Positions 7,642 through 64,000 of a DNA stretch of 64,000 nt are shown here, piece by piece. How positions within the stretch are numbered: position 1 is the first letter of the stretch; each line of letters starts with the position of its first letter. The position numbers and the translations under genes are program-made. Source of the DNA: Eledone cirrhosa. Taxonomy: Eukaryota. The stretch covers positions 422,654,001 to 422,718,000 of the forward strand of contig OZ024740.1 in assembly GCA_964016885.1 (NCBI GenBank), given 5' to 3'. The notes under the pieces were generated by a model. The model was given only the letters and a program-made list of their open reading frames with translations, had not been told where the DNA came from and made no database searches.

Positions 7642-7890
7642 CACCTTGACCGACCAGTCTGTCGGGCGCCAATCGGCGCCGCTGGTCACAGCACGTCGTG
7701 CTGTTTTAGCCATAAGATAACGCCATCCCACTGACTAGGCGGGCAGACTGGTACTCATTTCTACAGCTGAGTAAACTGGAGCAACGTGAAATAAAGTGTC
7801 TTGTTCAAGGAAACAACACATCGCCCGGTCCGAGAATTGAACTCACAACCTTTTGATTGCAAGCCCAATGCTTTAACCACTAAGCCATGC
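7640..7890 (-). mobile_element. SINE family B copy
   Basis: GCAACGTGAAATAAAGTGTCTTG...GAACTCACAACC...AACCACTAAGCCA is the reverse complement of the 4194 copy. Further copies at 27540-27745, 35080-35222, 41298-41482 and 51005-51275. Confidence 0.85.
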
Positions 7891-10490: not shown

Positions 10491-10997
10491 GAAGACGGAC
10501 GTTAAATGATGAGACATTGATATGTTATGAACTATCAATAGTTTAACTAGCAAGTTATTGTTGTTTATTCGCAGATCTACTCTAACCCAACAGACCTATT
10601 ATATAATCGAAAGTGTTTCTGCCATGACCATCCGGTTGACTTTTCATACATTACATTGTATGGAATAACAATATTTAATGTAACCCTCTCTTTTATGTGG
10701 GTAGGGTGTATTTTGGGGGCAGTGGCGGGGGTGGGTGTGCGGGAAATTCCGGCTTCTATTTTTAGAAGGTTTGAATGACCACCTAATGTCAGAATTGTGT
10801 CAACTAAGTCCTGTGTCATGTGTTCACCCAGCTATGTCCTGTGTCATCTTACTTTTATTCACATTACAACGTTTAATAAGAAATATGATAGCACTCAATG
10901 CTGCTTAAAACGATACAGTTCAGCCATGAAATGGTTATTTAAACGTACCTACAGAGTAATATATTAGATCCAAGATATACCACATTATTATATGTTG

Positions 10998-11185
10998 GGC
11001 GGTGAATTGGCAGTATCGGTAGAGGGTTGGACGCCATGTTTTCTAGCATAGTTACGGCCCTTGTCATTCTGAGTTCAAATCCCGCCGAGGTTAACTTTGC
11101 CTTTCATCCTTACGGGGTCGATAAAATAAAGTACCAGTAATGTACTGGGTAATTGCTGGCCTTGTGGCAAAAGTAGAAACAATTA
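10998..11185 (+). mobile_element. SINE family A (tRNA head, Nin/Deu-like domain)
   Basis: TGGCAGTATCGG A-box, GAGTTCAAATCC B-box, TTTGCCTTTCATCCTTACGGGGTCGATAAAATAAAGTACC, tail GTAGAAACAATT. Confidence 0.9.
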
Positions 11186-11189
11186 TTTT

Positions 11190-11590
11190 AATATGTTAGA
11201 TCCAAGATATACCACATTATTAATATATTAGATCCAAGATATACCACATTATTAATATATTAGATCCAAGATATACCACATTATGATAATATATTAGATC
11301 CAAGATATACCACATTATAATATATTAGATCCAAGATATACCACATTATGATAATATATTAGATCCAAGATATACCACATTATAATATATTAGATCCAAG
11401 ATATACCACATTATAATATATTAGATCCAAGATATACCACATTATAATATATTAGATCCAAGATATACCACATTATGATAATATATTAGATCCAAGATAT
11501 ACCACATTATAATATATTAGATCCAAGATATACCACATTATAATATATTAGATCCAAGATATACCATTTTATTAATATATTAGATCCAAA
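11190..11590. repeat. 31-34 bp minisatellite, about 12 copies
   Basis: Unit TAATATATTAGATCCAAGATATACCACATTA; single copies also at ~10958 and ~11780. Confidence 0.95.
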
Positions 11591-20576: not shown

Positions 20577-20880
20577 TGTAGTAGAAGTTTGGGATAAATA
20601 TCCAAGGTAAGAGCACTCAGTCCATTCGTCCAGTTAAGTATAATTAGTTACAACTGTGATATATACAGGTACTTAAGTTTCATTGGGTTATACAGCCCAA
20701 CTCATTCAGCCTGTTATTTAAACAAAAATGGCTACCTCCACCGAAGAGGTTTTGAAGTTTTTAAAAAGAGCTCTTTTGTGATTTCTAAAAATTTCAAAAA
20801 AATCTTCTGTGGAGGTAGCCATCTTTGTTTAAATAACAGACTGAATGAGTTGGTGTGTATAACCCAACGAAACGTAAGTA
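20577..20880 (-). mobile_element. PLE-type pseudo-LTR, family D, fold-back with ~100-bp arms
   Basis: 20670-20765 is inverted relative to 20785-20880; adjacent to (TA)n. Confidence 0.7.
20666..20713 (-). ncRNA. Hammerhead ribozyme with CTGAATGA core (family D)
   Basis: Minus strand: CAGG-CTGAATGA-GTTGGG..CCCAAT-GAA-ACTTAAGT(palindrome)-A-CCTG. Confidence 0.7.
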
Positions 20881-22094
20881 AGCAGCGGTTCTTTGCTTAA
20901 ACTTTAATCTGTTATTTTAATAATATATATATATATAGAGAGAGAGATCGATCCTCAGTGAAATCGAGGGTAACCACAGTAAATAAGGTACTCAGTACTT
21001 AAGTAGAGTGAGAACAACGAAAATTTAGTATAGAAATGGCTTCTACAGGTCTAGAACTATTTAATACGAATGAAACAGTTCTAGTCCTGTAGAAGCCATT
21101 TCTCTCTATATATAATCTACTGCTAATACGTTGAACTGATCTTGTGTAACATAAGCCCGATTAATTCTCATAGAAAAGCGACGACCACATCTGAAATGTA
21201 AAGAACTGGGAATAACCCTACATTAATGTAATACCATTGATTTATTGATATACTCTAGGAAGAATAAAAATACCAAACAACTAAAATACGAGACAAAAAA
21301 AGCAGCATTACATCTGCACAAAATCTATTTTCTTCTTATACATTTACCATTCTTCTTGTGTAAAGACTTCAGGCAATATACCTTATAAATAGAATGTTCT
21401 ACCTGTGTGTACGTGTATCTTCTTTATTTTACTTTTATTGTTTTCTTTATTCCAATTATCCTGTTTATTTTTATTTGTTCCACACACCGATTCCACCCCT
21501 GTAATATTCCAGAAGATCTCTTTAAAATTATTTTCTTACACCGTTTCCACCCCCACTCCACCCTGTAATATTCCAGAAGATTTCTTCATAATAATTTCTT
21601 CAAAATATGTCAACAAATTCTCGCATTTAATCTTATTGTGAAATTTACTTGTTTTTTTATGTTAAATGTTTTCTAGTTTAAAGTTGTATTAAGTAAATAG
21701 TTTTATTTCACTATATGTTGTTGTTGTTGTTGGTAGTGATGGTGGCTGTGGGGTTGAGTAGTAGTGATAGTTGTGTGGTGGTAGTGAGAGTGGCTGTGGG
21801 GTTGAGTGGTGGTGGTGAGAGTGGGGTTGAGTGGCGGATTTTTTATTGCTGCTGTTGGTGCTGGTGTCTGTGGTGAGGGTGGGTGGTGATTGTGGCGGCA
21901 GTGTCTGTGGAGGTGGGGTTGAGCAGTGGTGGTGGCGGCAGTGTTGTTGTTAAGCTCCAGTTCAACTGTGAGTATACTCACAATCAATAGTTTATTTGCC
22001 GTGGTCATCTCATCCTTTATTTCTAGACCACACAGTGACCCTATCACTTACAACACCACACAGTGACCCTATCACTTACAACACCCCACAGTGT

Positions 22095-29778: not shown

Positions 29779-31279
29779 GGGGGGGGGGCATAAAAACAAT
29801 GATGATGAGGATGCAGAGATGGGTATTGACATTGTTATAGTTCTGTTGGTTCCTGGTGGTGGTTGTGTCAGTGTCACTCTATCATCATCCCTACCATTAC
29901 TCGCCGCCGGGTCTACACATCAACATTATTTTAATCCCGCCCAGCTTAGCTTTGCCTTTCATCCTTACGGAGTCGATAAAATAAAGTACCAGTAATACAC
30001 TGGGTAATTGCTGGCCTTGTGCCTAACGTAGAAACAATTTTTACTACTGCCAGGAGGAGATTGGCCATCACCACCATCATCATCATCACCACTAGCAGCA
30101 GCAGCACCACCACCACCACTAGCAGCAGCAGCACCACCACCATCATCACCTCCAGCACCCCACCACCCCCACCATCACCTCCAGCACCGCACCATTCCCC
30201 ACAAGCACCCCACCATCACCACTATCACCACAACCTCCACCAGCACCACCACCAGCACCTCTATCACTACCACCACACCACCACTACCACACTACCACCA
30301 TCACCTCCACCACTATCAACACCACCAGCACCACTACCATTACTTACTTAAAAGAATATACAATTCTTAGTTCAGGGTTAAACATCGTTGATAGTGTTTA
30401 GATGATGAGTATTAATGTAAAGATTATTGTGGCTTCCAGCAGATATGTAATTACATGTGAATATGTATGTGTTTATGTGTGCGAGCTTGTATGTGTAAAA
30501 ATAGTGTAATTTTAAATGTTGGTCTTCTCAAGTGTGCAGCAAAATCTAAAGTGAAGATAGATCGATAGGGAAATACAAATATAGACAGACAGTTATAGAA
30601 ATAAGTTTGAAAGTATTTCCTACATGGAATGGTATAAATAAAATGTTTGATACATTCACACTCTGTGGTGTAACTTGTCTGCTTTTGTCGACATGATCTG
30701 AAAATGAGCACATTTAATAAACATTAAATATATTTCTGAGTCATTGAGGAGGTCACAGAATGCGTGACAAAAGAACTTTGACGAATAAATAACAAGCAAT
30801 AAAGATAAAGTGTATCTTTTTATTGGCAATACATGACCATCCCCAAATATAACAATAATATTTATTTCTCAGTTGTTTGGAAATCTAAATGTTATTTCTG
30901 TTGACAAATTACATTAAAAATTCCGTTACAAAACATTTCTTTCTTGTCTAACACGTAAAAGTTCAGCCTATCATAAAACTTTGTTTACACAGGCATCTTT
31001 TATAATGTTAATAGCTTTGGAAGAATTCACTTCTGCTTTAAGATTGATTTCTTTAGTTTTCATCATCATTCCTTCTTCACACGGTTGTGGAAACCTCAAA
31101 CACCCCTTCGAGCTGGTCCTGTCAGAAGCAACTGTTACCAACTTGATCCGGCTGTATACAAAACATCAATTCTTCATTTTTATCTAAAATTCCCCAAATG
31201 AACTAATTTTTTAAATTCATTTGATTGTATTTTCAAAAGTCTGGAAAAAATTGTACACATTTTTACCAATTAATTTAAT

Positions 31280-31322
<43 letters not shown>

Positions 31323-31608
31323 ATAAATCATGTCTACAGAATTATTAGATAAACAAAATATATACTCCATTTCCTCTGCCAAACAGCACAATCAACCATA
31401 TAAAAAATCAGTTATACTAAGCCATAAGGATAAAAGTTCCTATGAAGAAATCTCCGACAAATAAACGAGAGTGGCTTCTTCACGGTATCCACAGCAGGTT
31501 ATTTATCCAACATTTCGACAGCATGCATAAATCGACCAAGTACATAATTAACCATATGCAATTCGGTGTAAAATCAAACACAGAAGAACTGTGTACATAC
31601 CGTAACTA

Positions 31609-31688
31609 TATCTCTACCATGGTTTCATCCGTATTTTTAGATATCCTATTAATAGGAAATCCATTGAGTTCGGAATCATCAGGAGATA
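31609..31688 (-). ncRNA. Type-I hammerhead ribozyme
   Basis: Reverse complement of 32672-32751; intact core. Confidence 0.85.
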
Positions 31689-32671
31689 AACTCAAAAATA
31701 GACACTTAGTATTCCAAGCCGATCGCGCCAAAATTGGATTCAAAAATGGCTAAGAATCACACTATGGCCGTGGTCAAGTTGGAAAGAATGTGATTGGCTG
31801 TTGACGGCGTGTAGGCCTGTCGCTCGAAAGCGCAGCCAAATATCGCCAAATTTAATCTCAACCTTACGAGAGATTATTAAATATAAAGGTTTACATATAC
31901 ATAAATTTATATATATTACAACCGGTCACTTTTTAGCTCTATGAAGAATTAATAAATTAAATACTCAGAGCAATATATTATTATAAATCATGTCTACAGA
32001 ATTATTAGATAAACCAAATATATACTCCATTTCTTCTGCCAAACAGCACAATCAACCATCTAAAACTACGGATGAAACCATGGTAGAGATATAGTTACGG
32101 TATGTACACAGTTCTTCTATGTTTGATTTTACACCGAATTGCATATGGTTAATTATGTACTTGGTCGATTTATGCATGCTGTCGAAATGTTGGATAAATA
32201 ACCTGCTGTGGATACCGCGAAGAAGCCACTCTCGTTTATTTGTCGGAGATTTCTTCATAGGAACTTTTATCCTTATGGCTTAGTATAATTGATTTTTTAT
32301 ATGGTTGATTGTGCTGTTTGGCAGAGGAAATGGAGTATATATTTTGTTTATCTAATAATTCTGTAGACATGATTTATAATAATATATTGCTCTGAGTATT
32401 TAATTTATTAATTCTTCATAGAGCTAAGAAGTGACCGGTTGTAACATATATAAATTTATGTATATGTAAACCTTTATATTTAATAATCTCCCGTAAGGTT
32501 GAGATTAAATTTGGCGATATTTGGCTGCGCTTTCGAGCGACAGGCCTACACGCCGTCAACAGCCAATCACATTCTTTCCAACTTGACCACGGCCATAGTG
32601 TGATTCTTAGCCATTTTTGAATCCAATTTTGGCGCGATCGACTTGGAATACTAAGTGTCTATTTTTGAGTT

Positions 32672-32751
32672 TATCTCCTGATGATTCCGAACTCAATGGA
32701 TTTCCTATTAATAGGATATCTAAAAATACGGATGAAACCATGGTAGAGATA
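32672..32751 (+). ncRNA. Type-I hammerhead ribozyme, predicted GUA cleavage after 32745
   Basis: TATCTC-CTGATGA-tTCCG[extended stem II with TCCTATTAATAGGA]CGGAt-GAA-ACCATGGT(palindrome)-A-GAGATA. Confidence 0.85.
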
Positions 32752-33243
32752 TAGTTACGGTATGTACACAGTTCTTCTGTGTTTGATTTTACACCGAATT
32801 GCATATGGTTAATTATGTACTTGGTCGATTTATGCATGCTGTCGAAATGTTGGATAAATAACCTGCTGTGGATACCGCGAAGAAGCCACTCTCGTTTATT
32901 TGTCGGAGATTTCTTCATAGGAACTTTTATCCTTATGGCTTAGTATAATTGATTTTTTTATATGGTTGATTGTGCTGTTTGGCAGAGGAAATGGAGTATA
33001 TATTTTGTTTATCTAATAATTCTGTAGACATGATTTATAATAATATATTGCTCTGAGTATTTAATTTATTAATTCTTCATAGAGCTAAAGAGTGATCGGT
33101 TGTAACATATATAAATTTATGTATATGTAAACCTTTATATATATATATATAAATGTTAGTACAGCATTGACGAAGCTTTAGTATACGGCCAAGCTAGCGT
33201 ATATGCATAATCGGTCTGTAACTTTAGCACTCGGATGAGGTAA

Positions 33244-33295
<52 letters not shown>

Positions 33296-33320
33296 GTGTA
33301 TCTATATTTATATCTGTGTG

Positions 33321-33351
<31 letters not shown>

Positions 33352-33637
33352 TTATATCTGTATTTTTAACCGTTGGTCAATCAATGATACACATTGATTG
33401 CCAAATAAATTAACTATGGAGATATAAAAGATACAGAAGCGAAAACCAACCAAACAGTGAGTGTGTTCTGTTATTATTTCTGGCAATATTATTACAACAA
33501 TATGACCCTCCCCAAGTATAACAAAATTTTCTATAAGATTTGTCTCAATTGTTTAGACACATTAAACTGCCAATATTGTACGAGTTACAACAAACGTTTT
33601 TAGGCTCCAGCTATTGTATATAGAGAATTACGGGTTA

Positions 33638-36289: not shown

Positions 36290-36795
36290 GGTCGATAAAA
36301 TATAGTACCAGTTACGGACTGTATTCGATTTAATCGACTTCACCCACCTTCAAATTGCTGGCCTTGTGCCTAAAGTAGAAATGATGATTATTATTATGGC
36401 AGTGGATTGACAGTATCGGTAGAGGCTCGGACGCCATGCTTGGAATTATAGAGTTACGGCCCTTTATGGTCTGAGTTCAAATCCCGCCGAGGTTAACTTT
36501 GCCTTTCATCCTTACGGAGTCGATAAAGTAAAGTACCAGTAATGAACTGGGATAATTGCTGGCCTTGTGCCAAAAGTAGAAACCATTATTATGGCAGTAA
36601 TCGGAAGAACGTCGGACACCCTGCTTTGAAGCACAGTTACGGCCCTTTACGTTCTGAGTTCAAATCCCGCCGAAGTTAGTTTTGCCGTTCATCCTTACGG
36701 GTCGATAAAATAAAGTACCAGTAATGCACTGGGTCGATTTAATCGACCCCCCCCCCTCAAATTGCTGGTCTCGTGCAAAAAGTAAAAACAATTAT
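36290..36795 (+). mobile_element. Three head-to-tail SINE family A copies
   Basis: Successive copies begin in the (ATT)n tail of the previous one. Confidence 0.85.
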
Positions 36796-44689: not shown

Positions 44690-45105
44690 TGAACATTAAG
44701 CCACTACCCGCAGTCTCAGATATTCAGCGTGTATCGGAGGGTCCTTGCTGTTCCCAGTAGGTATGCCTTTTCGGGTGCTCCAAAAAAAGGAGCTTGGGCT
44801 AATGTTTTTTAACCAGCCTTGGAATCTCTTCAAGAGAGTACCTGATGCTTCTATGGCGATAAGGACGACCTTGATCTCATGACAGTCCCAAATCCTTTTC
44901 AGTTCCCACTTTAGATCCTGGTACCAGTTAATTTTCTCCTCCTTTTTTTGTAATCTTGTGTCAGGGGGGCAAGCTGCATCTATAATCAAGCAAGATCTTT
45001 TTTCCTTCTCAAAAACCACCAAGTCAGGCCTATTGTGTTCTAATTCTTTATCTGTTTGTATACTGAAATCCCACAACACCTTCACCCGATCCTTTTCTAT
45101 CAGAT
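44690..45105 (-). mobile_element. R4/Dong-type non-LTR retrotransposon 3' fragment (restriction-like endonuclease)
   Basis: KVLWDFSIQTD..HNRPDLVV..CLIIDAACP..K..YQDLKWELKRIW is the RLE PD-D motif; frameshifted near the end. Confidence 0.88.
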
Positions 45106-45966
45106 CGTAAGGGGGTGTAACACTATGCCATAAATCATGTTGCCTGACGCACTAGCGATTATTGCTAATCTGCCACCCTAATGGTTATAAATAATTGTTT
45201 CTACTTTTGAAGGGGAAGGGATAGTCATTTAAATCGACCCTAGTGTATTACTGGTAATTTATTTTATCAATCCTGTAAGGATGAAAAACGAAAGCTGACC
45301 TCGGCAGGATTTTAACTGAGAACGATCTGTCCTCAAGTCAAGAGACAGCAAACTCGTCGTCAGTATTAAGAGGTGATATACGATATAGTCGTAAGACTGG
45401 TAAGATAATCCACACGTTTCCGTTTACAACCTGTCAATGTCTGTATGTTTGAGTGCATGCATATTCGATGACAAACTTTACACATAAAAATATAGCCGTA
45501 TATGTGTGTATACTTGAATGCTTAAAAAATCCGTTTGTGCAACAATTCTAGAAGCTGCATACTCCGTCAGAGAACACGAGCTATTACGACTGTGATTTAA
45601 AATAAGCGGTCTTTCTGTTTTGTGAAGATATATATATTGTTGATTAATTAAATCAAGCTTAGGTTTCGTTGACATCAGCTCACTATGAAGTCGCTATTCT
45701 CTCTCTTTGAAGTGATATGTATCCACTTTGATTTGACATGCACTCACTGTGAAGTCGTTAGTCTCACTTTGAACTGATATATCCTCGTTTAGAATTACAA
45801 ATACTCTTTAACTCTTCTCTTACCTGTTCCAATCAGTGAGTTGCAATCATGCTGGGACATCGACGTTGTGTGTGTGTGTGTGTGGATTTTGCAAGTGAAT
45901 GCATCTGTGTTTCGTATGTTCTTCATATACAGATATACAGTGGTTGTAATTCTATATGAGAATATA

Positions 45967-48385: not shown

Positions 48386-48905
48386 TCAGCATGTACCCAT
48401 GGGAGGTCGGGTACCCTGTATTACTGCGTGACGCCAGAAGTCACGGTCGTGTGTCATTGACTTTGAGAGGTGTAGTTGGGTAAGGTCGGCTTTTATCACC
48501 TCATCCCAAGTCATCTTGGGTCTCCCCACTCCGCGGTTTCCATCAACTTCTAGTGCTCTGCACCTTTTTATGCAGCTGTCATCCTTCATACGCATCACAT
48601 GTCCATACCAGCGTAACCGCCTCTCCTGCACGCAGCATTTGATTCCTCTTATGCTCAGTCTCTCTCTCAATTCATTTATGCTTTGTCGTTCACGTATATT
48701 ACTGTTACACATCCATCGGAGCATGCAGGCTTCGTTTCTCTCTAATCTACGTAAGTCTTCCACCTTCAGCGCCCAGGTCTCACTACCATGCAACATCGCT
48801 GTTCGGATACACGCATCATACAGTCTGCCTTTCATTCTGAGGGAGAAGCCTTTTGCAGCTAGCAGTGGTAGTAGTTCCCTAAACTTCTTCCATCCCGTTC
48901 TTACC
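48386..48905 (-). mobile_element. RTE-type LINE 3' ORF fragment (well preserved)
   Basis: GWKKFRELLPLL..KGRLYDACIRTAMLHGSETW..RRLRWYGHVMRM..GRPKMTW; 5'-truncated at (TA)n. Confidence 0.92.
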
Positions 48906-49164
48906 CTTATATATATATATATGTGTGTGTGTGTGTATATTTAGATATATGTGTGTGTGTATTTAGATATATGTGTGTGTATATTTAGATATATGTGTGT
49001 GTGTATATTTAGATATATATGTGTGTGTGTGTGTATATATTTAGATATGTATATGTGTGTGTGTGTATATATTTAGATATGTATGTGTGTGCGTGCGTGT
49101 TTTCCAAACAGTGTTTGAATTATTTATACATATCGGATGTCTACGATAATTTTATGGATATGTA

Positions 49165-50250
49165 ATGGTAAAGTACCAGTAATGCACTGGGTAATTGCTG
49201 GCCTTGTGCCTAAAGTAGAAACAATTATTTGTATTTAATCGATTCTGAAGAGATTATTATATCAGGAATGGAATATTCGAGTTATTTCAATCAATCGCCA
49301 ATGAATTTACTGAAGAATATGGCCAGGATTGGGTGTCTAAAGAATCCGTTTGCGCGACCATTCTAGAAGTTGCACAAGAATATAATAATAATTGTTTCTA
49401 CTTTGGCACAAGGCCAGCAATTATCCCAGTACATTACTGGTACTTTATTTTATCGACCACATAAAGACGAAAGGCAAAGTTAACCTCGGCGGGATTTGAA
49501 CCCAGAACGTAAAGGGCCGTAACTCTATATTGCAAAGCATGGTGTCCGATGCTCTACTGATATTACCTATCCACCTCCTTAATAATTCTTTCTACTTTAG
49601 GCACAAGGCCAGCAATTACCCAGTGCATTACTGGTACTTTATTTTATCGACCCCGTAAGGATGAAAGGCAAAGTCAACCTCTTATATAGGCACAAGGCCA
49701 GCAAAATTTTTTTTTGGGGGGGGGGACTAAATCGACTCCAGTACGTGACTGGTACTTTATTGCACTGGGGTCGATTTAATCGACTTTTACCTCCCCTCAA
49801 ATTGTTGGCTTTGTGCCTAAAGTAGAAATTATTATCATTATTATTTGTTAAAGGCGGTGGATTGGCAGTATCGGTAGAGGGTCGGACGCCATGCTTTGAA
49901 GCATAGAGTTACCTCCCTGTATGATCTGAGTTCAAATCCCACCGAGGTTAACTTTGCCTTTCATCCTTCCGGGGTCGATAAAATAAAGTACCAGTAATGC
50001 ACTGGTAATTGCTGGCCTTGTGCCAAAAGTAGAAAAAATTATTATTTGTTAAAGGGCGGTGGATTGGCAGTATCGGTAGAGGGTCGGACGCCATGCTTTG
50101 CAGCATAGAGTTACGGCCCTTTATGATCTGAGTTCAAATGCCGCCGAGGTTACTTTGCGTTTCATCCTTACGGGGTCGGTAAAATAAAGTACCAGTAACG
50201 TACTTATATAATTGCTGGCCTTGTGCCAAAAGTAGAAACAATTATTTGTT
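49165..50250. mobile_element. Cluster of at least 6 SINE family A copies in both orientations
   Basis: Minus copies at 49385-49760; plus copies at 49165-49228 and 49760-50250. Confidence 0.88.
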
Positions 50251-52723
50251 AAATAGAATGAAAAGAAAAGGAGAACCGAGTGCCAAGTATTGTATATTAT
50301 AGGAAGGAGTTAGCACTTGTCTTACATTTGTGTTCTGTAGTTTGTTTCAACCAAGGCCATGTTGGAACAATCCTTCAATATATGCGTCAGTGTATGTGTG
50401 TCAGTATCTATGTATCTGTGTATCTGTGTATGTGTGTATGTGGTATATACGCATTTGTACATCACACCTTCGTTTTACATACAATAATTGCAGTGTACTA
50501 TATTTTGAGTTGAGGTTATTGAAGAAAAAAAAAACCTTACATTACGTATTATGGTTGAATATATATATTCTTACAGATCTGACTATACGTTATCTAAAAT
50601 CTTTTTTAACCTTTTCATTACATATTTTTATATAATACACTTGCTATATGTTTCAAACCATTTCCAAAATAACCAAGAATTTGGAAGGATTTAGTAATGT
50701 AACTTTCTCATCAAGTATTATGATGGTATCCGTTTATAGATCTGACTACTAAACAAATGTGTCGTATTTTTCGATTAAAACGCATTTTTTATCATTATCA
50801 TCGTTTAATAATGAAAGGAGTGTCTTAGCCGAGAAATACGGTTGATATGTTTAGTTAGCTCTGTAATATATGTATCGGCAGTCCCCAACCTTTGTACACC
50901 ACGGACTGGTTTCATGCAAAACAATTTCTCCATGGTCCGAGGGGTGACGGTTGCTGTCAGTCACGCGCACAATAAGAGCAATAAAATACATCTATAAAAA
51001 AAGTCTCGAACCCAGAGGTCCACCAGGCCGGTGCTAATCCCGGTTTATGTGACGTAAAGCGACTGAGAGTATAATACTTCCCCTCTGGATAGGATGCCAG
51101 TCCGTCGCACGGTCCCTCCGGTTATTACTGGTATTCATTTTCAGCTGAGTATACTGGAGCAACGTGAAATGAAGTATTTTACTAAAGGACACAACACACA
51201 ACCCAGCCCAGGAATCGAACCAATAACATTATGATCGTAAGTCTAACACACTTACCACGAGGCTACGTACCTCCATGTAAACAAACAACAACAAAAACCT
51301 TGTATAGCCATAACTGGGATATCTTTGATCATATACGTCTGCTTGAACTGGGCTAACATGGAGCTTAAACCTATTTACATTGTTTTAATTTATTCTCTTT
51401 ATTAAAGAGAATAACAGCCACTGTTATTCCTGTAACTAACATATCTTCACTTTTATAGTCGTTGAATGGACGACAATCTTTTTATAAAACATTTTCCCCT
51501 ACCATGTCTATTATCGTTTTTTATATTTCTTACTCTTATCGCTACAATTTCCTCCCAGTTCAATTAGTGTTTACAATGTAAGGTTAAAAACTACATTGTT
51601 GATACATGTTATCTCTTCAGAGGATTTCACTCAATAAATACAAATTAAAAGAAACTAATGTAATTGAAAACGAGGAAAGAAAACAATATTTTGCTATTCT
51701 GAAAACATCTTTTATTTCAAACAACTGTTTAATTCGTTGTTTGTTAATAGTCCTTTAATCAGCTTCGTTCAATGGTGACTTTATTTTATTATTTATTTAT
51801 CGATTTATTTTACTTTATGTAAAACATCTCGTGTCTCCATTTGACGGATTTAAGAATACTTTAGTTGAATTTCTCTCACTTTAAGACATGAATACTTTGG
51901 TTGAATTTCTCTCTCTTTCTTCCGTGGCCTAATAGTCCTTTTCTTCACATTTATGACATTTACTTTACTTTCCCATACAGCCAGATCTGCCCTTATTTAT
52001 CATTCCTCCTATTTTCGTTACTTAGTTTTCTTTTTATCTTTTTTGTCTTCATGTTTCTATCATTGTATAACTTATATTTGTAAAATATAGTTGACTTAAT
52101 ATGTTTATGTATAACTGATTGTTGTGGGGGGGAAAAAACCCCGAACACCCCCGCGTAACTAAAAGTGGACTAGGCGAAATTCTATAAATAAGAACTGCCA
52201 GGGGAACTATGTGTACAGAGTCTCGTTGGTAGGAATTACACATGGGTGTCACCCCCGTTTCCTACAGATATACAAAACAGGTGTGTCACCATCATACCAC
52301 TGATTAAATATAAAAATGTTGTAATGTTTTAGAGATTAAAGCAGAGTCTGTGTCTTAAGGAAATATAATATATATATAAATAAATAAATCGATCCAGTGT
52401 GAAAGATAAAACATTCGTTATGTGTGTCGTTGTTTGTTAATAGTCCTTTAATCAACCTCGTTCAATGATGATTGTTTTTTATTTATTATTTATCGATTTA
52501 TTTTACTTTATGTAAAACGACAGCTAATGTCTTCATTTGACGGATTTAAGAATACTTTGGTTGAATTTCTCTCACTTCAAAACTAAGACATGAATGTAAA
52601 AGTAATTTATAGAAATTACTTTAGTTTTTCTTTGATTCATATATTGTGGCAGCATATTCTGTTTAATCAGGCTAAAGAGATGTACTTATTACTGATGTAC
52701 TTATTAAGATGGAAAATACATTT

Positions 52724-57559: not shown

Positions 57560-57988
57560 TGGGTGGTTGACAACTAAACCAGCTCCCCCACCTGACTATG
57601 ATGGCACAACTGAAAAGACATCATGTGGACTGTGGTGGCAGAGCTGACAGCCATTTTGAAAAAAACATTTCAGGCATTGCTTCAAAGAGTGGCAGAATCG
57701 CTGGGCTAACAGTGTGAAGGACCTACTTTGAAAGGGATTAACAATTGAATGCTACCAAGTATACAATTCTTCTTTCCTAGTTTAAGGTCTGGCAGTATCG
57801 GTAGAGGGTCGGATGCCATGCTTTCCAGCATAGTTACGTCCCTTTACGATCTGAGTTCAAATCCCGCCGAGGTTGACTTTACCTTTCATCCTTACGGGGT
57901 CGATAAAATAAAGTACCAGTAATGCACTGGGTAATTGCTGGCCTTGTGCCTAAAGTAGAAACAATTATACTTTTATGACAGACCTCGT
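57560..57988 (+). mobile_element. Mariner transposase C-terminal relic with right TIR, interrupted by a SINE
   Basis: CFKEWQNRW..YFERD* motif; TIR-like ACTTTTATGACAGACCTCG|TA at 57969-57990. Confidence 0.6.
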
Positions 57989-63600: not shown

Positions 63601-64000
63601 TCTGGATCACAATGTATGGAAATTTATTGCCACTCATCTCAGATGTGAAGTGTATGTTGTTGCTGTTGAGTGTCAGTGTTTTATTCCTGTAATAATATAA
63701 TTGTTTCTACGTTAGGCACAAGGCCAGCAATTGTCCAGTGCATTACTGGTACTTTATTTTATCGACCCGGTAAGGATAAAAGGCAAAGTCAACCTCGGCG
63801 GCATTTGAACTCAGATCGTAAATGGACGTAACTATGCTGGAAAGCATGGCGTCCAACCCTCTACCGATACTGCCAATCCACCGCCTATTCCTGTAATAAT
63901 ATAAGGTTTCTAAATTATTGATTAAACATTCATGTCAGATTGTAATGGTTTCAAAAGTTCCATCTTTATAAATCAAGACAAGCTGCTGTAGTTCAAAGTC

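What the first reader, a model, noticed from the sequence alone, without database searches (positions are those of the whole stretch)
31314..33137. Candidate 660-nt retrozyme: hammerhead-punctuated tandem unit that could release a circular RNA
Seen: a near-identical 660-bp unit is repeated head-to-tail on both sides of an inversion. Each full unit has one intact HHR (6-bp stem I, CTGATGA/GAAA core, palindromic ACCATGGT stem III, GUA site). Predicted cut positions 32085 and 32745 are exactly 660 nt apart, although the first HHR is only a 3' half here. The ORF track shows no ORF on the HHR strand, and both ends lie in (TA)n. Established: metazoan non-LTR retrozymes are tandem non-coding repeats with minimal type-I HHRs that cleave as dimers, give circRNAs and are thought to be mobilised by Penelope-like RTs. 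Inference: this is a young, possibly uncharacterised retrozyme family, and the circularly permuted copies fit reverse transcription around a circular template.
Basis: partly seen in the sequence, partly recalled or inferred. Interest (0 to 1): 0.82.

Follow-up and report, generated by a model that had tools for sequence, protein, structure and literature searches.

The report
Hammerhead repeat with Penelope-type insertion footprint
A 660-base non-coding unit carrying a hammerhead-shaped RNA motif sits here as about three tandem and inverted copies inside a TA microsatellite; it is likely a passenger of Penelope-like retrotransposons (a "retrozyme", a kind already known from many animals), and whether it cuts itself or makes RNA circles is untested.

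Summary
A 660-nt unit (34.5% GC, no coding signal) is present as 1.14 units on the minus strand and 1.64 units on the plus strand, joined head-to-head, both outer ends in (TA)n. It carries two complete type I hammerheads and one 3' half; chance is about 0.0004 per unit. The ribozyme is not minimal: it has a 6-bp helix I, a U·U-closed helix II with a 39-nt structured insert in loop 2, and Rfam misses it. Sequencing runs show a large related family; about half the depth has the canonical C at position 11.1. The layout is the known footprint of Penelope-like elements (PLEs), and both arms read through cut sites, so the template was longer than a cleaved monomer: a circle, an uncut multimer or template jumps, which I cannot separate. 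Published work finds uncut RNA is a PLE's main template. This locus lacks two consecutive complete ribozymes and is probably a dead-end copy. No RNA run and no genome were available, so cleavage, circles and an RT-coding parent are untested. Verdict: a probable new non-LTR retrozyme family, a known kind; its size is within the published 51-972 bp range.

The parts
31313..33143 (.). Whole insertion: two arms joined head-to-head, both RNA-3' ends facing outwards into (TA)n
31284..31318 (.). Left (TA)n target; 6 nt are shared with the unit's TA tract at unit positions 297-302
31313..32065 (-). Inverted arm, 753 nt = unit 210-660 + 1-302 (1.14 units), crosses one predicted cut site
31609..31688 (-). 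Complete type I hammerhead, predicted cut between 31615 and 31614
32058..32065 (.). Inversion junction: 8-nt overlap of the two 5'-truncated arms, 7 of 8 letters shared
32058..32091 (+). 3' half of a hammerhead (GAAA, helix III, GUA, 3' strand of helix I); no CUGAUGA; predicted cut after 32085 only with a partner core
32086..32745 (+). One full 660-nt unit, cut site to cut site; GC 34.5%
32099..32341 (+). Predicted long imperfect hairpin (unit 14-256); unit 1-260 folds at z -2.2
32100..32105 (+). Splice-donor-like hexamer 14 nt after the cut site (consensus recalled; function untested)
32561..32569 (+). CCAAT-box-like nonamer upstream of the ribozyme (NF-Y consensus recalled; function untested); no Pol III A or B box matched
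32672..32751 (+). Complete type I hammerhead: helix I 6 bp, CUGAUGA 32678-32684, U10.1/U11.1, helix II 4 bp, GAAA, helix III 2 bp + palindromic loop, predicted cut after 32745
32690..32728 (+). 39-nt loop-2 insert with an inner 9-pair hairpin (32697-32722; 8 of 9 pairs at probability 0.8-1.0)
32746..33143 (+). Partial unit 1-397, the part beyond the last cut site; ends in a TA tract
33136..33151 (.). Right (TA)n target; 5 nt shared with the unit's TA tract

Best explanation
This is likely one truncated insertion of a non-coding, hammerhead-bearing 660-nt repeat family that likely borrows the reverse transcriptase and endonuclease of a Penelope-like element (a non-LTR retrozyme in the broad sense). 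Shown: the unit, the ribozyme-shaped motif, the head-to-head layout, the (TA)n ends, the many relatives. Inferred steps: (1) a tandem source locus elsewhere is transcribed into more-than-unit RNA; (2) a PLE protein nicks both strands of a (TA)n tract; (3) each nicked end pairs with a short TA tract inside the RNA (unit positions ~302 and ~395) and primes cDNA; (4) both cDNAs run through ribozyme sites, for 1.14 and 1.64 units; (5) their far ends join by an 8-nt microhomology. The template was an uncut multimer, a circle or monomers bridged by template jumps; I put a circle at about one in three. The ribozyme probably cuts weakly and mainly as a dimer. This copy is probably a dead end.
For: Layout equals the PLE footprint: partial tandem plus adjacent inverted 5'-truncated copy, (TA)n targets, no readable target duplication (PMC8557442); head-to-head inversion is the commonest PLE form and microhomology 5' joins are described (PMC3846280). 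A purified PLE cuts and extends both target strands in AT-rich DNA and starts inside its RNA (PMC11167929). The unit closes on itself with no ORF, and every position of the 660 is present at least twice, positions 210-660 in both arms, so the template already had the closed unit. Both outer ends fall on TA tracts of the unit (6 and 5 nt; about 0.004 for random ends). Family: 599, 551 and 668 contigs laid in three runs of one sample and 1632 reads in a second sample, most 85-95% alike. Position 11.1 is C in about half the depth (X1 10,440 of 18,910; X4 198 of 354 reads, 45 starts) and one loose-end consensus shows G at 10.1, the canonical pair. U10.1-U11.1 is known in active natural hammerheads (PMC3088659) and in an axolotl retrozyme (PMC7229834). 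The unit folds better than 60 of 60 shuffles (z -3.4); 5 of 6 control stretches lie within z of +/-1.
Against: No RT-coding parent could be looked for: no genome, and the read-laying skipped 33105-33240, which covers unit ~360-397, a possible exit point into an ORF (only 24 of 291 loose ends shown). No array of two or more complete units was seen anywhere. The hammerhead fold is not the predicted ground state: helix III has probability 0, and helices I and II fall from about 0.4 to 0.02 or less in a 250-nt context. The antisense strand is as structured as the sense (z -3.9), so folding gives no strand evidence. Only 1 of 9 predicted Xenopus retrozyme dimers cut in vitro. The G10.1 letter rests on the far end of one loose-end consensus. 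In the reconstituted PLE, priming needed no homology to the target, unlike step 3; that step rests on two junctions.
Confidence: 0.68

Rival explanations
1. The 3' end of an autonomous PLE that carries two or more long pseudo-LTRs in tandem; both arms were truncated before reaching the ORF, so no separate non-autonomous family exists.
For: PLE insertions are mostly 5'-truncated and hold hammerheads in their pLTRs, also as close opposite-strand pairs (PMC4209133). CCAAT-like and splice-donor-like motifs flank the ribozyme, as in PLE 5' regions. The parent test was not possible.
Against: The same closed unit appears in both arms. No coding remnant: Pfam 0 of 6 frames, no homologue of the 110-aa frame. 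Near-identical contigs have similar depth on both sides of the cut (about 200-420), and only 0-1% of laid contigs run on into unlike sequence. The ribozyme lacks the min-HHR traits of PLEs.
Confidence: 0.2
2. The first reader's stronger version (a sub-case of the best explanation): the family is processed to a 660-nt circular RNA and this insertion was copied round such a circle.
For: cDNA runs of 1.14 and 1.64 units cross three cut sites exactly; circle-templated copying is the published proposal (PMC4209133; PMC7229834); no two copies are closer than the rest (0.7-3.7% apart over their overlaps); the monomer is self-paired.
Against: An uncut multimer or template jumps give the same DNA. Ribozyme cleavage was dispensable and uncut RNA dominant for the reconstituted PLE. 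With three or four short copies the difference pattern cannot separate the models.
Confidence: 0.3
3. A solo pseudo-LTR or monomer was duplicated and inverted locally by DNA repair or replication errors at the unstable (TA)n tract, without a second round of reverse transcription.
For: Microhomology at the inversion junction and at both ends also fits DNA repair; satellite-like local expansion is proposed for retrozymes.
Against: No flanking host DNA is duplicated or inverted with the unit; both outer ends are ribozyme-strand 3' ends at different unit positions; the form is the standard PLE one.
Confidence: 0.08
4. Assembly artefact from collapsed or mis-joined repeats.
For: Such tandem/inverted PLE structures trouble assemblies; no read spanning the junction was examined.
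Against: The four copies differ from each other at 13 places, and no pair is identical; the junction has its own letters.
Confidence: 0.04

Closest known systems
Metazoan non-LTR retrozymes (Cervera and de la Pena 2020, PMC7229834; parts 2-4 of 6 read)
   Same: Non-coding, GC under 50%, tandem unit with a type I hammerhead, many copies, self-paired monomer. The axolotl HHR_Amex2 has the same 2-bp helix III with tetraloop and U-U at the base of helix II.
   Different: Unit 660 nt against 150-450 there; 39-nt structured insert in loop 2; dispersed inverted insertion rather than a long array; no cleavage or circle shown.
Non-LTR retrozymes as non-autonomous PLE derivatives (Li, Clavereau and Pollet 2026, bioRxiv 10.64898/2026.07.22.740005; parts 1-3 of 5 read, supplements closed)
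   Same: Family lengths 51-972 bp include 660; most families have 7 or fewer units; pLTR origin fits the footprint here.
   Different: 35 genomes, none listed as a mollusc in the text; this locus fails their 'active' rule of two consecutive complete ribozymes; kinship to a pLTR is not shown here.
Pseudo-LTRs and tandem/inverted insertions of EN+ Penelope-like elements (PMC8557442 passages; PMC3846280 passages; PMC11167929 parts 1-2 of 4; PMC4209133 parts 1-2 of 4)
   Same: Partial tandem plus head-to-head inverted copy, (TA)n target, hammerhead near the 3' end, 3' ends beyond the ribozyme.
   Different: No RT or GIY-YIG frame; the arms' 3' ends differ by 95 nt, not a 30-40 nt tail; the ribozyme is canonical-like, not minimal; ends share letters with the target.
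Non-autonomous Chlamys PLEs such as MRC1, and Naiad PLEs of octopus (PMC8557442)
   Same: Non-autonomous PLE derivatives with multicopy head-to-tail insertions are described; octopus Naiads prefer (TA)n.
   Different: Naiads lack canonical hammerheads and are called long inactive in cephalopods; the unit's 12-nt core motif has 0 hits in that supplement, and the Naiad_Obim and Naiad_Ovul 3' ends do not resemble the unit by eye.

Membership tests
Non-LTR retrozyme | Head-to-tail non-coding unit | tested here: met
   1.64 and 1.14 units; longest sense frame 62 aa; Pfam 0 of 6 frames
Non-LTR retrozyme | Type I hammerhead in each unit | tested here: met
   2 complete and 1 half, by descriptor; chance about 0.0004 per unit; not detected by Rfam
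Non-LTR retrozyme | Unit length in the known range | tested here: met
   660 is outside 150-450 bp (PMC7229834) but inside 51-972 bp (preprint)
Non-LTR retrozyme | GC below 50% and self-paired monomer | tested here: met
   34.5% GC; circular fold z -3.4, antisense z -3.9
Non-LTR retrozyme | Many genomic copies | tested here: met
   551-668 contigs per run and 1632 reads in a second sample, mostly 85-95% alike; copy number not calibrated
Non-LTR retrozyme ('active' as defined by Li et al. 2026) | [quoted passage not shown] | tested here: not met
   At this locus the upstream site is a 3' half. Other loci could not be examined. The locus is therefore filed as a truncated offspring copy, not as an active retrozyme.
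Non-LTR retrozyme | Self-cleavage as monomer or dimer | not testable with these tools
   Folding only: weak in cis, favourable as a two-strand dimer site
Non-LTR retrozyme | Expressed as unit-length linear and circular RNA | not testable with these tools
   No RNA holder listed; no evidence either way
Non-LTR retrozyme | Not attached to an RT-coding element; related to a PLE pLTR | tested here: inconclusive
   No ORF at the locus; 0-1% of contigs run on unlike, but unit ~360-397 was skipped; no genome
Autonomous EN+ Penelope-like element | RT plus GIY-YIG reading frame | tested here: not met
   None in the insertion; recalled RT and GIY-YIG motifs gave no credible hit in six frames of the window
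Autonomous EN+ Penelope-like element | Partial tandem with adjacent head-to-head inverted copy, microsatellite target | tested here: met
   against PMC8557442 and PMC3846280
Autonomous EN+ Penelope-like element | Optional 30-40 nt tail at one end | tested here: not met
   The two 3' ends differ by 95 nt
Minimal PLE hammerhead (min-HHR) | Helix I 4-5 bp, little or no helix III, extra base between 9 and 10.1 | tested here: not met
   6-bp helix I, 2-bp helix III with tetraloop, no extra base in the fold used against PMC4209133
Canonical metazoan type I hammerhead | Loop 1-loop 2 tertiary contact | not testable with these tools
   A U follows helix I and an A-rich run ends loop 2, as in the recalled consensus; loop 2 is interrupted by an insert; no 3D test

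The most novel reading that the evidence does not exclude
A first cephalopod-type retrozyme family whose hammerhead carries a conserved, structured 39-nt insert in loop 2 that hides it from Rfam and from short-spacer descriptors, makes a 660-nt RNA circle, and is inserted by PLE enzymes that prime on TA tracts inside the circle. Each insertion would then record where priming began and how far the enzyme ran round the circle, a genomic test of the unproven circle-template model.
Probability: 0.22. Interest if true: 0.6.

Novelty: new member of a known kind. Interest (0 to 1): 0.32.

Why it matters
The kind is known, so the gain is modest. If the family makes circles, it adds a larger animal retrozyme from a lineage with no report in my searches and a long-loop hammerhead that standard scans miss, which would mean such ribozymes are under-counted. 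Mapping the ends of all copies in a genome would bear on an open question: whether PLE enzymes use circles or uncut multimers, and whether they prime by pairing with the microsatellite.

Tried and rejected
No whole genome is held. Rfam: no hammerhead at gathering score in the window or at E<=10 in 31200-33300. No RNA holder listed among 6 runs; not evidence on expression. Pile-ups of read starts and ends in run X4 looked like preferred reverse-transcription starts but all 7 places, and the 379 loose ends at 32950, coincide with GCATGC or AATT sites, so they are RAD library cuts (enzyme names SphI and MluCI recalled); rejected. Strand asymmetry of folding: rejected, antisense z -3.9. Star-like differences among copies as proof of one circular template: rejected, too few copies. 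The 110-aa antisense frame as a gene: no Pfam hit, 1 candidate and no hit among near-length proteins (longer and shorter not searched), Atlas best score 0.77. Pattern scans: 0 metagenome hits; 21 viral hits, all with helix I of 0-2 bp; 16 metagenome hits with a looser pattern, best helix I 5 bp in 1 of 16; none of the 37 loci matches the unit by blastn. Naiad identity: not supported (compared by eye, no alignment). Pol III promoter: no A or B box. Earlier scan notes: none for this genome or sequence.

Full report
OBSERVATION. The window is repeat-rich animal DNA; its dispersed short repeats resemble octopus SINEs (recalled, not tested). Between 31313 and 33143 lies a 660-nt unit. Taking the predicted cut as the origin (unit = 32086-32745), the minus arm 32065->31313 is unit 210-660 then 1-302, and the plus arm 32058-33143 is unit 633-660, 1-660, 1-397. 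The arms meet head-to-head in an 8-nt overlap with 7 shared letters. Both outer ends are 3' ends on the ribozyme strand and run into (TA)n. The copies differ at 13 places and no pair is identical, so the insertion is not brand new or its templates already differed. No other copy is in the window. There is no coding signal.

THE RIBOZYME. Two complete type I hammerheads (32672-32751 plus, 31609-31688 minus) and one 3' half (32058-32091) are present. My descriptor finds only these two in the window and 1 hit in 3 Mb of simulated sequence; 21 of 21 chance core matches in viral contigs have a helix I of 2 bp or less. The motif is not the minimal PLE type (PMC4209133). It has the 6-bp helix I, 4-bp helix II and short palindromic helix III of canonical metazoan hammerheads, a U-U at 10.1/11.1, and a 39-nt loop 2 with an inner hairpin. 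That length probably explains the Rfam miss and exceeds the 7-17 nt spacer used in one PLE survey. U10.1-U11.1 is tolerated in natural hammerheads (PMC3088659 passages) and occurs in axolotl HHR_Amex2, which cuts weakly alone and better as a dimer. Folding is ambivalent: the active fold costs 5.7 kcal/mol over the minimum of the 80-nt motif, helix III is never populated in cis, and helices I and II drop from about 0.4 to 0.02 or less in a 250-nt context; a complete core paired with a second GUA strand folds into the hammerhead helices at -28.4 kcal/mol. A dimer mode is therefore the likely one, if it cuts at all.

THE FAMILY. Three runs of one sample hold 60-69% of the unit's sampled words; they may be the window's own source. 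Laying these and one RAD run of another sample on 32484-33240 gave 599, 551, 668 contigs and 1632 reads, most 85-95% alike. Near-identical pieces have depths of about 200-420 on both sides of the cut; listed diverged pieces have 7-158 (24 of 1825 pieces shown; the tool warns that depth is no copy number). An identical 101-nt contig across both U positions (depth 265 and 233) shows that U-U belongs to the young subfamily and is not decay at this locus. About half the depth has C at 11.1, and one loose-end consensus shows G at 10.1; another keeps the complement of the inner hairpin (agreement 0.73). None of the 40 substitution rows shown (of 110) falls in the two core boxes or helix III. Most of the 24 loose ends shown (of 291) continue co-linearly; one X4 row (76 reads before 32603) is unlike the unit and unexplained. 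The stretch 33105-33240 was skipped. Read pile-ups in X4 are restriction sites.

MECHANISM. The layout is the PLE footprint: partial tandem, adjacent inverted truncated copy, (TA)n target (PMC8557442), mostly head-to-head (PMC3846280). A purified PLE cuts and extends both target strands and starts inside its RNA (PMC11167929), which would give two outward-facing 3' ends. The rotifer paper explains head-to-head inversions instead by self-priming on an antisense template; I cannot exclude that. Both ends lie on TA tracts of the unit (6 and 5 shared letters; about 0.004 for random ends), which suggests priming by pairing with the target, though on two junctions only and unlike the reconstituted PLE. 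The cDNA runs cross three cut sites, so a single cleaved monomer was not the template. Circle, uncut multimer and template jumps all fit. The in vitro work found uncut RNA dominant and no read ends at the cut; the circle model is a published proposal. Because the closed 660-nt unit is present in both arms, the template was most likely a non-autonomous unit rather than an ordinary truncated PLE, but an autonomous element with tandem pLTRs is not excluded.

CAN THIS LOCUS RELEASE A CIRCLE? Probably not. The site at 32085 lacks its CUGAUGA and could be cut only by a partner core. The CCAAT-like box lies inside the unit, downstream of that site, and read-through from the left would make a 753-bp inverted-repeat duplex. 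These are inferences.

COMPARISON AND NOVELTY. It works like a metazoan non-LTR retrozyme (PMC7229834). A 2026 preprint derives these from PLE pLTRs, gives lengths of 51-972 bp, and found cleavage in 1 of 9 dimers (its supplements are closed and may list closer cases). The locus fails that preprint's rule for an active element, so I file it as a truncated copy of a probable new family. Searches for retrozyme or hammerhead with octopus or cephalopod returned no report of such a family (listings only; the library lacks most subscription papers, and Repbase and Dfam were not available). The supplement of PMC8557442 has 0 hits for the core motif. This scan holds 76 findings with the words retrozyme and hammerhead in at least 32 genomes, so the kind recurs.

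VERDICT. Observation confirmed, interpretation partly supported. New member of a known kind; interest 0.32. The unusual points are the long structured loop 2 and the TA-tract ends; cleavage, circles and the parent element are untested.

Noticed in passing
window 20670-20880 and 21032-21103: A hairpin with 98-nt arms (85% complementary, 15-nt spacer) and a second with 34-nt arms; the 660-nt stretch from 20600 folds at z -17. Possibly a miniature inverted-repeat element.
   Followed up: no
window 30833-30855 and 33502-33524: The two flanks of the insertion share a 23-nt match at 91% and look alike over a wider stretch by eye; perhaps an older duplication or repeat. No Pfam hit for the frames there.
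   Followed up: partly
window 10984-11193, 36353-36590, 49380-50253, 57790-57975, 63690-63900 and 7830-7887: Many ~200-nt dispersed repeats at 85-92% identity and a tRNA-like head repeated elsewhere; SINE-like.
   Followed up: no
window 48386-48940 (-) and 44696-45151 (-): Open frames of 184 and 151 aa that read like C-terminal remnants of LINE proteins (resemblance recalled, not scanned).
   Followed up: no
L025:3001-3062 (-): A metagenome match with both hammerhead core boxes, a long helix II region and a 5-bp helix I; unrelated to the unit by blastn; may be chance.
   Followed up: no
supplement of PMC8557442, 3' ends of Naiad_Obim and Naiad_Ovul: Both carry a GAAA box about 25 nt upstream of a CUGAUGA box with a nearby short inverted repeat, an order that recalls a permuted hammerhead; the authors mark one as 'HHR_half_core'. 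Seen by eye only.
   Followed up: no
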